A DNA stretch of 1,541 nt from Naegleria gruberi (lineage: Eukaryota), in assembly GCA_000004985.1 (NCBI GenBank), contig GG739388.1; one strand, 5' to 3'. Within the stretch, counting starts at the first letter, position 1, and each line of letters begins with the position of its first letter. The notes under the pieces were generated by a model. That model searched no databases. It was not told where the DNA came from and saw only the letters and a list, made by a program, of their open reading frames with translations. Of the stretch, positions 1 to 1,541 are shown one piece after another. Position numbers and translations under genes: made by a program.

Positions 1-39
1 AACAACCACATGAGTAACAAGTCCAACCCTCGAGTTCTT

Positions 40-65
40 CTTCGTTTCCCCCTTGGGACACGAAG
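40..65. other. Hairpin: cttcgt-t-tccc / ggga-c-acgaag. It has a 10-bp stem with one t/c mismatch and the loop cctt.
   Basis: Pairs c40-g65 through t45-a60, mismatch t46/c59, then t47-a58 through c50-g55, loop 51..54. It is 17 nt upstream of the stronger hairpin at 82..107. Confidence 0.5.
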
Positions 66-81
66 CCTGACCAAGGGTTAG

Positions 82-107
82 TCCCACCACTTCGTGAAGT
101 GGTGGGA
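82..107. other. Perfect GC-rich hairpin: 11-bp stem tcccaccactt / aagtggtggga with the 4-nt loop cgtg.
   Basis: I checked the pairing base by base (t82-a107 through t92-a97, loop 93..96). 7 of the 11 pairs are G-C. It lies in the ~50% GC block at the window start. There is no downstream T/U tract on either strand, so it is not a classical intrinsic terminator. Confidence 0.6.
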
Positions 108-130
108 ATGGAAAACTACTGAACCGAGAG

Positions 131-148
131 TGTTGTGTGTGGTGTTTG
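131..148. repeat. Short imperfect TG-rich dinucleotide-like tract tgttgtgtgtggtgtttg.
   Basis: Seen directly. It marks the boundary between the ~50% GC block (1..130) and the AT-rich tract. Confidence 0.45.
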
Positions 149-174
149 ACATGGAGTTAATTTTTTTAATTTGA

Positions 175-189
175 AATTTAATTTAATTT
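175..189. repeat. (AATTT)3 microsatellite within a 157..230 AT-rich tract (tttttttaatttgaaatttaatttaatttt...aaaaataaaaaataag).
   Basis: Seen directly. The region 161..420 is under one-third G+C by hand count. Confidence 0.8.
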
Positions 190-420
190 TATTGTTTGTG
201 ACTTGGCCAAAAATAAAAAATAAGATAATTCGATCTCCAAGAATCGAAAACTGGTCATGTACCTCCATATCCAGCGTTGTACCTCTATGCTACAACAGCA
301 AGAAGTACAACAAATAAAAAAACATCATTGAATAGCACTCCTTAATTGATATTAGCTATTGCAGTTAGGGTTGTAGATTTAATTTTCATGATAATTACGT
401 ACAATTACGGTAGTATGATT

Positions 421-458
421 CACGCGAGGATCGTTGAAGGTTCGACCAAGCTCGCGTG
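421..458. other. GC-rich inverted repeat cacgcgag ... ctcgcgtg (8-bp arms, 22-nt spacer) forming a small GC island inside the AT-rich flank.
   Basis: Arms at 421..428 and 451..458 are exact reverse complements. The spacer gatcgttgaaggttcgaccaag contains GGTTCGA, which resembles a tRNA T-loop, but no cloverleaf can be built around it. Confidence 0.4.
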
Positions 459-727
459 GTCCACAAGTTTTCACTCGAGGTTTAGCATTAACCCGACAAC
501 AATATAAATACATCTCTAGTATGTTATTTAGAATTATTGGTCATCTTTACAAATTCCGAAACTATGATATTGACTCAACAAATCCTAGTAACTGATTCCA
601 TTGTTGTGAGAATGGCCATAATAAGATGAAACATGCTTATTCTCAATATGTTGTCCCAAATCGTTCTTTTCAGCGCTTAATAGGCTCATTTCTGACTATC
701 ATGACAACAAGAGAATATACACATTTA

Positions 728-742
728 AACAAAGTCTTTGTT
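728..742. other. Perfect 15-nt palindrome aacaaag-t-ctttgtt, beginning 8 nt downstream of the minus-strand stop codon.
   Basis: Seen directly. On the minus strand it reads aacaaagactttgtt immediately after taaatatgtc. The arms are A/T only, so the stem is weak, and no U-run follows it. It may be a 3'-end or processing signal, or coincidence. Confidence 0.3.
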
Positions 743-749
743 GACATAT

Positions 750-1541
750 TTATGAATAAAATACAAAAATTGCAAAGAATACCAATGCAATACTAAGGAC
801 AATGCTCAAAATATCCATTCCATCGAGAGAATTGAAGAAATTCTTCTTTGGTGGTGAGGATTCAATTTCAATGTTTGCTTTTTCTGTTTCAATATTTTCT
901 AGTTGACTATCAGTTTCAACATTTTCCAGTGAATTTGGTATGTCAAAACTAAATGCAGCGGTTTGAGCTTGAGGAGATAGAGGAACTTGGTTAGTAGATC
1001 CAAAACTAAAAGGATCAGAATTTGATAAATTACATGAATTCCCCCGCATTTCATTAAACATGTTTGTCATGTATTCCCCTTGTTGCTGTCGTAGGAAAGT
1101 TTTCAACAGTTCTTCTTGTAATTTCTGTTGTTGCTCCAGCTCACTTGTAGATCCAAAACTAAATCCACTTGTTGCCTTTGGTAGTTGAGAGAATTCAGAA
1201 CCTAAACTAAATCCATTTTGTACTGATTGAGTTGGTGGAGGAGGTAGAAAATTACATCCACCAATCTGATTCGATTGTTGTTGCACTAATCCACCACATG
1301 TTGGTGGTGAAAAAGCACCAAAAGTAAATCCACCAAAAGAAGGTTGAGGAACTTGGTTTGTATTAAATTGACCAAAATTATTTGGGAAATTGTTTGTTGA
1401 TGAATTAATTTCTGTTGGAAAGAAAGGATTGGCAGATTGAGTGGAGGCAGATCCAACATTAAATGCAGAAAAACCTTGGTCAACTGGACCAAACGGACCT
1501 AATTGACCTAAATTATTTGCACCTAAATTGCCCAGAACCTT
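750..1541 (-). CDS. Partial CDS; the 5' end runs off the window at 1541 and the stop is TAA at 752..750. Hypothetical Q/N/S-rich low-complexity protein with FG-type repeats and a C-terminal hydrophobic tail anchor.
   Basis: I reverse-complemented 1287..1541 by hand and translated it. It reads KVLGNLGANNLGQLGPFGPVDQGFSAFNVGSASTQSANPFFPTEINSSTNNFPNNFGQFNTNQVPQPSFGGFTFGAFSPPTCGGL. There is no stop, and it is in the same frame as the 178-aa track ORF, since 1541-750+1 = 792 = 264x3. The track's 'start' at 1286..1284 is GTG read as an alternative start; in context it is Val, in ...CGGL-V-QQQSNQ.... A 264-codon open frame in sequence of about 37% GC is very unlikely by chance. The frame contains FG dipeptides (PFGP, NFGQ, SFGG, TFGA, and SFGS twice), codon bias toward A/T third positions, and a hydrophobic C-terminus. 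Confidence 0.72.
   Translation of the reverse strand, partial: KVLGNLGANNLGQLGPFGPVDQGFSAFNVGSASTQSANPFFPTEINSSTNNFPNNFGQFNTNQVPQPSFGGFTFGAFSPPTCGGLVQQQSNQIGGCNFLPPPPTQSVQNGFSLGSEFSQLPKATSGFSFGSTSELEQQQKLQEELLKTFLRQQQGEYMTNMFNEMRGNSCNLSNSDPFSFGSTNQVPLSPQAQTAAFSFDIPNSLENVETDSQLENIETEKANIEIESSPPKKNFFNSLDGMDILSIVLSIALVFFAIFVFYS
753..812 (-). other. Predicted single C-terminal transmembrane helix (tail anchor): ILSIVLSIALVFFAIFVFYS, followed directly by the stop codon.
   Basis: A 20-residue uninterrupted aliphatic/aromatic stretch (I, L, V, F, A, with Y and S only at the end) occupies the last 20 codons. It is preceded by the polar residues SLDGMD. No other hydrophobic segment occurs in the 263 residues visible. 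A single TM at the extreme C-terminus is the tail-anchored topology; this is inferred from hydropathy by eye, without a TM predictor. Confidence 0.55.
886..926 (-). repeat. 27-nt-period tandem repeat: gtttcaatattttc (886..899) versus gtttcaacattttc (913..926), 13/14 identical. It encodes the acidic peptide repeats LENIETE(KA) and LENVETD(SQ). A third degenerate unit, ttcaatttcaatg (861..873), encodes NIEIES.
   Basis: Seen directly in the sequence and in the translation ...SLENVETDSQLENIETEKANIEIESS.... The period is 27 nt = 9 codons, in frame. Confidence 0.7.
994..1163 (-). repeat. Intragenic exact 17-nt direct repeat gtagatccaaaactaaa (plus-strand copies at 994..1010 and 1147..1163, 153 nt = 51 codons apart, in frame). 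On the coding strand it reads tttagttttggatctac and encodes FSFGST in both copies.
   Basis: Seen directly. Both copies are identical in nucleotide sequence, not just in amino acids (GFSFGSTSE... and PFSFGSTNQ...). Related degenerate copies of aaactaaatcca occur at 1201..1212 (GFSLGS) and near 1322..1333 (GGFTFG). Confidence 0.8.

What the first reader, a model, noticed from the sequence alone, without database searches (positions are those of the whole stretch)
750..1541. Tail-anchored FG-repeat, Q/N-rich low-complexity protein
The one gene visible combines three things. First, FG-type repeats (GFSFGS, PFSFGS, SFGGFTFGAF, NFGQF, PFGP) sit in a Q/N/S/T-rich, charge-poor matrix. Second, an acidic E/N-rich tandem-repeat block is present. 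Third, a single very hydrophobic 20-residue segment lies at the extreme C-terminus, directly before the stop. FG repeats in Q/N/S-rich spacers are the hallmark of cohesive FG nucleoporin domains and of some germ-granule and condensate proteins. A lone C-terminal TM is the signature of tail-anchored proteins, which are inserted post-translationally by the GET/TRC pathway. Canonical FG nucleoporins are soluble, and the membrane-integrated ones I know of (POM121-type) anchor at the N-terminus. A C-terminally anchored FG-domain protein would therefore be an unusual architecture, plausibly tethering a phase-separating FG domain to a membrane surface. Only the C-terminal ~263 residues are visible.
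Basis: partly seen in the sequence, partly recalled or inferred. Interest (0 to 1): 0.6.

Follow-up and report, generated by a model that had tools for sequence, protein, structure and literature searches.

The report
Tail-anchored FG-like orphan protein, Naegleria
The window holds a real gene of the amoeba Naegleria gruberi for a small, almost entirely disordered protein with a few nucleoporin-style FG repeats and a membrane anchor at its very end; the layout is unusual but has one known precedent, and nothing yet shows what the protein does.

Summary
The minus-strand ORF 750-1541 is clearly coding (GC3 0.19 vs GC1 0.47; 264 stop-free codons). The window is a whole 1541-bp Naegleria gruberi scaffold. 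A near-identical complete model on a large scaffold (NAEGRDRAFT_66949, 272 aa) adds only nine N-terminal residues, with no signal peptide. The protein has six copies of a degenerate GF[ST]FG-type unit that repeats at DNA level, set in a nearly uncharged N/Q/S/G/P-rich matrix. It also has one confident 36-residue amphipathic helix, a short acidic repeat, and one very hydrophobic 20-residue segment that ends at the C-terminus with no basic tail. That fits an ER/nuclear-envelope-type tail-anchored protein with a roughly 27-kDa disordered cytosolic domain. No homologue, Pfam family or solved structure was found, so it is an orphan, and nucleoporin membership is not supported by sequence. The architecture does have a precedent: Tetrahymena TtPom82 (N-terminal FG repeats, central coiled coil, C-terminal TM) is a localised pore-membrane nucleoporin. 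The tail-anchored reading is likely (about 0.6). A nuclear-pore role is possible but unshown (about 0.15). Interest is moderate to low.

The parts
750..1541 (-). Coding region: the C-terminal 263 codons plus the TAA stop (750-752). It is cut at its 5' end by the scaffold end. It corresponds to residues 10-272 of the complete 272-aa model NAEGRDRAFT_66949.
1152..1541 (-). Disordered FG-like region 1 (window residues 1-130). It is N/Q/S/G/P/F-rich and almost uncharged, and holds PFG, NFG, SFG, FTFG and FSFG motifs.
   Evidence: (pLDDT below 50 for residues 2-130)
1449..1470 (-). Repeat unit copy 1 (SAFNVGS).
1314..1335 (-). Repeat unit copy 2 (GGFTFGA).
1197..1218 (-). Repeat unit copy 3 (NGFSLGS).
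1149..1170 (-). Repeat unit copy 4 (SGFSFGS), the reference copy.
1041..1148 (-). Predicted amphipathic alpha-helix (window residues 132-167: SELEQQQKLQEELLKTFLRQQQGEYMTNMFNEM). Its hydrophobic stripe follows ##..##..##. It is a candidate oligomerisation or partner-binding element.
   Evidence: (H132-167, block pLDDT 73-87)
996..1017 (-). Repeat unit copy 5 (DPFSFGS).
944..957 (-). Repeat unit copy 6, degenerate (AFSFD).
   Evidence: D2
855..935 (-). Acidic block with period 9 aa / 27 nt: NSLENVETD, SQLENIETE and KANIEIESS. The first two units are good copies and the third is degenerate.
813..854 (-). Juxtamembrane segment PPKKNFFNSLDGMD. The KK pair lies on the cytosolic side. No acceptable GPI omega site was found here.
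753..812 (-). C-terminal transmembrane segment ILSIVLSIALVFFAIFVFYS, the last 20 residues, with no basic tail.
   Evidence: H241-262, pLDDT 81-96
1..749 (.). Non-coding flank 3' of the gene (GC 0.36). It holds two hairpins and an AT-rich microsatellite, with no ORF of note, no tRNA and no Rfam match.

Best explanation
This is a genuine, lineage-restricted (orphan) Naegleria gruberi gene. It encodes a ~29.6-kDa tail-anchored membrane protein. Shown here: the ORF is coding; the only hydrophobic segment is the last 20 residues; the remaining ~250 residues are acidic overall (net about -12, pI 4.35), but the FG-bearing part is almost uncharged and is predicted disordered. That part is built around six copies of a degenerate GF[ST]FG-type unit, one ~36-residue amphipathic helix and a short acidic spacer next to the membrane. 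Inferred mechanism: the TMD emerges from the ribosome only at termination, so the protein is inserted post-translationally. Its very hydrophobic TMD with zero tail charge fits the ER class of tail-anchored proteins (GET/TRC40- or EMC-type route). The whole FG-like domain would then face the cytosol on the ER and the continuous outer nuclear membrane. There the Phe-rich, low-charge domain would act as a membrane-tethered cohesive or hydrophobic-motif docking surface, with the helix providing self-association or partner binding. Its most specific candidate role is at the pore membrane, by analogy with TtPom82, but that step is not shown.
For: Coding signal and ORF length. Identity to N. gruberi models, and a complete 272-aa model with a non-hydrophobic N-terminus MIDLKREREK. 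A single hydrophobic segment at residues 253-272, with KD 2.84 and a Hessa sum of -3.7 kcal/mol, while no other 19-mer falls below +8.7. AF2 predicts only two helices, 132-167 and 241-262, with everything else below pLDDT 50-55. FG and FxFG enrichment and the DNA-level repeat. No simple GPI omega site. The TtPom82 precedent shows that such an architecture can be functional.
Against: The N-terminus rests on an unverified gene model on a scaffold I could not read, so an upstream exon with a signal peptide or further TMDs cannot be excluded. No transcript or protein evidence could be retrieved. No orthologue was detected, not even in other Naegleria, so there is no evidence of purifying selection. 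Q/N-rich low-complexity sequence is, to my knowledge, common in amoebae, so the FG-like motifs may have no specific function. TM assignment used hydropathy scales and AF2, not a dedicated topology predictor.
Confidence: 0.6

Rival explanations
1. It is a bona fide pore-membrane FG nucleoporin of the Naegleria NPC, a miniature functional analogue of Tetrahymena TtPom82. The tail anchor would sit in the pore membrane, the helix would dock to scaffold Nups, and the FG units would contribute to the barrier or bind transport receptors.
For: The domain order matches TtPom82 point by point: N-terminal FG repeats, a central helix or coiled coil, and a TM at the extreme C-terminus. GF[ST]FG/GFSLG units in uncharged spacers resemble the repeat style of Nup62-type FG domains (from memory, not tested). 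The ER-type TMD gives access to the nuclear envelope. Membrane Nups are poorly conserved and lineage-specific, so the lack of homologues is not disqualifying.
Against: There are only six FG motifs in 272 aa. Neither the Pfam Nucleoporin_FG models nor any other family match, even at E<=10. There is no similarity to any PDB chain. No homologue was found in 1.84 billion representative proteins. There are no localisation or interaction data. The helix is short (~36 aa), compared with a central coiled coil in a 699-aa protein.
Confidence: 0.15
2. It is a secreted, GPI-anchored or type-I surface protein whose N-terminal signal peptide is missing from the gene model. In that case the C-terminal hydrophobic stretch is a GPI signal or a type-I anchor, and the low-complexity region is extracellular.
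For: A hydrophobic stretch that ends at the stop codon is also the hallmark of GPI signals. The model's N-terminus is unverified, and the window itself does not reach it.
Against: The complete model starts MIDLKREREK, and no 8-mer in the first 40 residues exceeds KD 0.81. No candidate omega site combines small omega and omega+2 residues with a 5-10-residue spacer. The 20-residue segment is long and hydrophobic enough to be a stable TMD. An F/Q/N-rich composition with only 3 Cys is not typical of surface mucin-like proteins (inference).
Confidence: 0.1
3. It is a young or decaying orphan ORF with no specific function. On this reading it is low-complexity sequence produced by internal duplication that happens to end in a hydrophobic run.
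For: There are no homologues anywhere. The construction is internally repetitive. No expression evidence was retrievable. About a third of Naegleria orthogroups are not shared between N. gruberi and N. fowleri (PMC8296547).
Against: There is strong codon-position bias (GC3 0.19) and a 264-codon open frame. Two independent assembly copies keep the frame, with only 2 amino-acid differences. The modular organisation, with a confident helix and a TMD, is more ordered than random low complexity.
Confidence: 0.15

Closest known systems
Tetrahymena thermophila TtPom82 (TTHERM_00375160), micronucleus-specific pore-membrane FG nucleoporin
   Same: The order of elements is the same: N-terminal FG repeats, a central helical or coiled-coil element, and a single TM domain at the extreme C-terminus (in TtPom82 the deletion construct is residues 1-678 of 699). 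The N/Q/S-rich repeat context is also shared (PMC5450191).
   Different: This protein is 272 aa against 699 aa. It has only six FG motifs. It has an acidic 9-aa repeat next to the TMD. No sequence similarity was detected in any search. TtPom82 has been localised to the cytoplasmic face of NPCs, whereas nothing is known here. The two organisms belong to different supergroups (Discoba vs Alveolata), so any relationship would be convergence.
Nup62/Nsp1-type FxFG nucleoporins
   Same: GFSFG, GFTFG and GFSLG-type units sit in uncharged S/T/N/Q/G spacers, and an alpha-helical segment follows the FG region (the motif resemblance is from memory of Nup62 sequences).
   Different: There is no Nsp1_C or Nucleoporin_FG Pfam match and no PDB chain match. 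The helix is about 36 aa rather than a ~200-aa coiled-coil domain. Those proteins are soluble, with no TMD.
Vertebrate and Tetrahymena POM121
   Same: A single-pass membrane protein carrying FG repeats.
   Different: POM121 has an N-terminal TMD and C-terminal FG repeats, which is the opposite orientation and implies co-translational insertion. It is also much larger.
Trypanosoma brucei TbNup65 (Nup53/59/Nup35 orthologue with a conventional TM domain)
   Same: A nucleoporin from a Discoba lineage that carries a conventional trans-membrane domain (PMC8421043).
   Different: TbNup65 belongs to the Nup35 family, which has an RRM-like domain (from general knowledge). No such domain is detected here, and the disordered sequence leaves no room for one.
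Generic ER-class tail-anchored proteins (GET/TRC40 clients such as Sec61-beta, cytochrome b5, emerin)
   Same: A single C-terminal TMD, a luminal tail of no more than 2 residues, no signal peptide, high TMD hydrophobicity and an uncharged tail.
   Different: The cytosolic domain is an FG-like low-complexity region with no homology to any known tail-anchored family.

Membership tests
Tail-anchored (TA) membrane proteins | A single TMD located within about 30 residues of the C-terminus. | tested here: met
   The TMD is the last 20 residues (253-272 of the 272-aa model). KD 19-mer mean is 2.84 and the Hessa sum is -3.7 kcal/mol. AF2 predicts a helix at pLDDT 81-96.
Tail-anchored (TA) membrane proteins | No N-terminal signal peptide and no other TMD. 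| tested here: inconclusive
   This is met for the 272-aa NCBI model: the best other 19-mer scores +8.7 kcal/mol, and the N-terminus MIDLKREREK is not hydrophobic. However, the model's 5' end lies outside the window and could not be checked against DNA or transcripts.
Tail-anchored (TA) membrane proteins | Post-translational, GET/TRC40- (or EMC/SND-) dependent insertion with the N-terminus in the cytosol. | not testable with these tools
   This is inferred only from the TMD position, its hydrophobicity and the uncharged tail.
FG nucleoporins | Many FG motifs (FxFG, GLFG, PSFG and similar) in a disordered, low-charge spacer matrix. | tested here: inconclusive
   There are 6 FG and 3 FxFG, enriched over shuffles (P=0.017 and 0.0008). 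The repeat unit recurs six times at DNA level, and the matrix is disordered and nearly uncharged. The motif count is low compared with typical FG Nups.
FG nucleoporins | Sequence relationship to a known Nup family or Pfam model (Nucleoporin_FG, Nsp1_C and others). | tested here: not met
   There are 0 Pfam families at E<=10. No relevant PDB chain matches at E<=10. No homologues were found.
FG nucleoporins | Localisation at the NPC and binding of nuclear transport receptors. | not testable with these tools
   This needs tagging, immuno-EM or pull-downs.
TtPom82-type pore-membrane FG protein | Architecture of N-terminal FG repeats, a central coiled coil and a C-terminal TM. | tested here: met
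   FG units lie at residues 26-138, plus two more after the helix. The helix spans 141-176 and the TMD 253-272. This was compared with the published description.
TtPom82-type pore-membrane FG protein | Homology to TtPom82. | tested here: not met
   Exhaustive HMMER and word-indexed searches returned only the protein itself, with no ciliate protein.
GPI-anchored proteins | An N-terminal signal peptide, plus an omega site with small residues, a 5-10-residue spacer and a hydrophobic tail. | tested here: not met
   The model has no signal-peptide-like N-terminus. No position passes the simple omega/omega+2/spacer rule. A dedicated predictor was not available.
POM121 | An N-terminal TMD with C-terminal FG repeats. 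| tested here: not met
   The orientation is the reverse, and there is no homology.
Nup35/Nup53/TbNup65 | A Nup35-type RRM domain with a C-terminal membrane-binding element. | tested here: not met
   There is no Pfam hit. AF2 shows no folded domain other than the two helices.

The most novel reading that the evidence does not exclude
The protein is a lineage-specific, tail-anchored FG nucleoporin of the Naegleria pore membrane. It would be the second known example, after Tetrahymena Pom82, and the first in Discoba. That would imply that C-terminally anchored FG/coiled-coil Poms are a recurrent, convergently evolved way of tethering barrier-forming FG domains to the pore membrane in organisms with closed mitosis.
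Probability: 0.15. Interest if true: 0.55.

Novelty: new member of a known kind. Interest (0 to 1): 0.3.

Why it matters
Membrane-anchoring nucleoporins are the least conserved part of the nuclear pore, and outside animals and fungi they are largely unknown. [quoted passage not shown] If this small Naegleria protein were at the pore, it would show that tail-anchored FG proteins recur across eukaryotic supergroups. It would also give a minimal (272-aa) model for how a membrane-tethered FG domain behaves. If instead it is an ER tail-anchored orphan, it is one more lineage-specific low-complexity protein. Its main use would then be as a caution that FG-like motifs in Q/N-rich protist proteins are not diagnostic of nucleoporins.

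Tried and rejected
- Pfam scan at E<=10: no family.
- PDB sequence search at E<=10: only an irrelevant 12-bit hit.
- Two word-indexed searches of 5.8 billion proteins (E<=0.01 and E<=10) and one exhaustive phmmer of 1.84 billion representatives: only the protein itself.
- Metagenome contig scan: 131 pattern matches, none confirmed by tblastn.
- Attempts to fetch the large-scaffold locus to read the 5' end and neighbours: neither model is on record in the contig index.
- Rfam and tRNA scans of the window: nothing.
- TRF: it did not detect the acidic repeat or the FG units, which are dispersed rather than tandem.
- Bacterial promoter/terminator scan: at or below the shuffle expectation and irrelevant for a eukaryote.
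- Transcript support: the gene identifiers are absent from the full-text library and from the 19 supplements of the N. fowleri/N. gruberi comparative paper. The differentiation-transcriptome preprint has no supplements held.
- Fold search: not run, because the AF2 model (mean pLDDT 50.5, pTM 0.21) has only two isolated helices and would give meaningless matches.
- SNARE idea: rejected, because the helix lies about 75 residues from the TMD rather than adjacent to it, and there is no SNARE Pfam hit.
- Nup35/TbNup65 idea: rejected, because there is no RRM domain.
- GPI idea: disfavoured.

Full report
**What is in the window.** The 1541-base window is an entire small scaffold of Naegleria gruberi. 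The only database protein that matches the ORF is the NCBI model 'predicted protein, partial [Naegleria gruberi]' (P0001, 248 aa, 100% identical), whose longest contig is 1541 bases. Its 90% cluster holds one other member, P0002. That is NAEGRDRAFT_66949 / UniProt D2VDK3 / XP_002677757, a complete 272-aa model on an 820,293-bp scaffold. P0002 equals MIDLKRERE plus the window ORF, with two substitutions (R166M and L188R in window numbering). I infer that the window is an allelic or redundant copy of that locus.

**Is it a gene?** Yes. The minus-strand frame 750-1541 is open for 264 codons, while the other five frames carry 9-26 stops. GC at codon positions 1/2/3 is 0.47/0.41/0.19. In 20,000 shuffles of the region the longest stop-free run was 196 codons. 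Codon choice is strongly A/T-ending (TTT, AAT, CAA, GAA).

**Anatomy** (P0002 numbering unless stated otherwise).
- Residues 10-137 are 22% Q+N, 18% S+T, 14% G, 12% F and 11% P, with only 2 K/R and 3 D/E.
- The cytosolic part has 25 Phe residues with a median spacing of 6.5 residues.
- There are six FG dipeptides and three FxFG, against 2.3 and 0.22 expected from composition (P=0.017 and 0.0008).
- The motif belongs to a real internal repeat. The 18-nt unit GGATTTAGTTTTGGATCT (G-F-S-F-G-S) recurs five times with at most 3 mismatches, where 0 are expected.
- The repeat finder lists six dispersed copies: SAFNVGS, GGFTFGA, NGFSLGS, SGFSFGS, DPFSFGS and AAFSFD. The start-to-start spacings listed (57-153 nt) correspond to 19-51 aa.
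- AlphaFold2 without an alignment gives pLDDT below 50 for window residues 2-130 and 168-206. It predicts exactly two helices: window 132-167 (block pLDDT 73-87) and window 241-262 (81-96).
- The first helix (SELEQQQKLQEELLKTFLRQQQGEYMTNMFNEMM) has a ##..##..## hydrophobic stripe rich in Leu, Phe and Met.
- The acidic block consists of NSLENVETD and SQLENIETE (20/27 nt, 5/9 aa identical) plus a degenerate third unit. TRF did not score it.
- The last 20 residues, ILSIVLSIALVFFAIFVFYS, are the only hydrophobic segment. The KD 19-mer mean is 2.84 and the position-independent Hessa sum is -3.7 kcal/mol, while the next-best 19-mer in the protein scores +8.7. No basic residue follows the TMD, and a KK pair lies 11-12 residues before it.

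**Topology and targeting (inference).** A single TMD that ends at the stop codon cannot engage SRP co-translationally, which is the definition of a tail-anchored protein. From established knowledge of tail-anchored sorting, high TMD hydrophobicity and an uncharged tail mark ER clients. Mitochondrial and peroxisomal clients have less hydrophobic TMDs with basic tails. This segment therefore fits the ER class (GET/TRC40 or EMC route), which places it on the ER and the continuous outer nuclear membrane. At about 27 kDa, the disordered extraluminal domain should be small enough to pass laterally through pore membranes. The GPI alternative is disfavoured. The model's N-terminus has no hydrophobic core (maximum 8-mer KD 0.81 in the first 40 residues). 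No residue satisfies a simple omega/omega+2/spacer rule. Because I could not read the 5' end of the locus, this remains the main uncertainty.

**Homology.** There is none.
- Pfam at E<=10 gave 0 families, so neither the Nucleoporin_FG models nor Nsp1_C match.
- PDB chains at E<=10 gave one irrelevant 12-bit hit.
- Word-indexed searches of 5.8 billion proteins at E<=0.01 and E<=10 returned only the protein itself.
- Exhaustive phmmer over 1.84 billion representatives returned only the protein itself.
- The JGI metagenome contig scan gave no confirmed relative.

The gene is an orphan as far as sequence methods can see. This is not rare in Naegleria: only 67% of orthogroups are shared between N. 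gruberi and three N. fowleri strains (PMC8296547).

**Comparison with what is known.** It is not. Iwamoto et al. [quoted passage not shown] They localised it by immuno-EM to the cytoplasmic face of micronuclear NPCs. They also showed that deleting the TM (construct 1-678 of 699) makes it diffuse in the cytoplasm. They noted that these features had not been reported in Nups of any other organism. The Naegleria protein reproduces that order of elements at 40% of the size. In Discoba, the supergroup of Naegleria, T. brucei TbNup65 has a conventional trans-membrane domain in place of the amphipathic membrane-binding motif of Nup53/59 (PMC8421043), but it belongs to the Nup35 family, for which there is no evidence here. 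POM121 has the opposite orientation. Membrane Nups are patchily distributed. Neumann et al. found Gp210 across all five supergroups, but Ndc1 in only one excavate, Trichomonas (PMC2951903). The GF[ST]FG/GFSLG units in uncharged spacers resemble, from my memory of the sequences, the repeat style of Nup62-type FG domains. This is a lead, not a test.

**Verdict.** The tail-anchored, FG-like, disordered architecture is well supported for the annotated 272-aa product (confidence about 0.6, limited by the unverified N-terminus and the absence of expression data). Membership of the FG nucleoporins fails the only testable criterion, sequence or family relationship, and the FG count is low. The claim 'works like TtPom82' remains open at about 0.15. 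The rivals are a mis-modelled secreted or GPI-anchored protein (about 0.1) and a functionless young ORF (about 0.15). The finding is a new, unrelated instance of an architecture already described once. It is of moderate to low interest unless localisation shows it at the pore.

Noticed in passing
window 82-107: A perfect 12-bp inverted repeat (TCCCACCACTTC / GAAGTGGTGGGA) with 2 nt between the arms sits in the relatively GC-rich left end of the scaffold. Folded as RNA it gives -18.7 kcal/mol (z = -3.5). There is no Rfam or tRNA match.
   Followed up: partly
window 421-458: A second strong hairpin (CACGCGAG...CTCGCGTG, 18-nt arms, 78% complementary) lies about 290 nt downstream of the gene's stop codon. 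Its energy is -19.9 kcal/mol (z = -3.8). Function is unknown; it could be a 3'-UTR or intergenic element.
   Followed up: partly
window 157-223: An AT-rich microsatellite, (TTAAT)n with about 7 copies at 157-193, followed by an AAAAATA repeat at 209-223. It looks like typical intergenic low complexity.
   Followed up: no
window 1-81 (+ strand, frame 1): The frame is open from the first base of the scaffold to a TAG at 79-81 (NNHMSNKSNPRVLLRFPLGTRSLTKG*). It could be the last 26 codons of a convergent neighbouring gene cut off by the scaffold end, or it could be chance.
   Followed up: no
window 813-845 (- strand; residues NFFNSLD just before the TMD): NFFNSLD, preceded by the acidic repeat, loosely resembles an FFAT core (EFFDAxE; consensus recalled from memory) that binds VAP proteins. 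It lies only 5 residues from the TMD and has N instead of D at position 4, so it is probably coincidental.
   Followed up: no
window 1041-1148 (- strand): The single confident helix carries a Met/Phe/Leu-rich ##..##..## stripe (LLKTFL...YMTNMFNEMM). It looks more like an amphipathic partner- or membrane-binding helix than a canonical heptad coiled coil.
   Followed up: partly
whole window compared with the 820-kb scaffold copy (P0002): The N. gruberi assembly carries this locus twice: on this 1.5-kb scaffold and on a large scaffold. The two protein products differ by 2 amino acids (R166M, L188R in window numbering). This is probably an uncollapsed haplotype, so the 'partial' NCBI protein XP_002668048 is redundant with XP_002677757.
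   Followed up: partly
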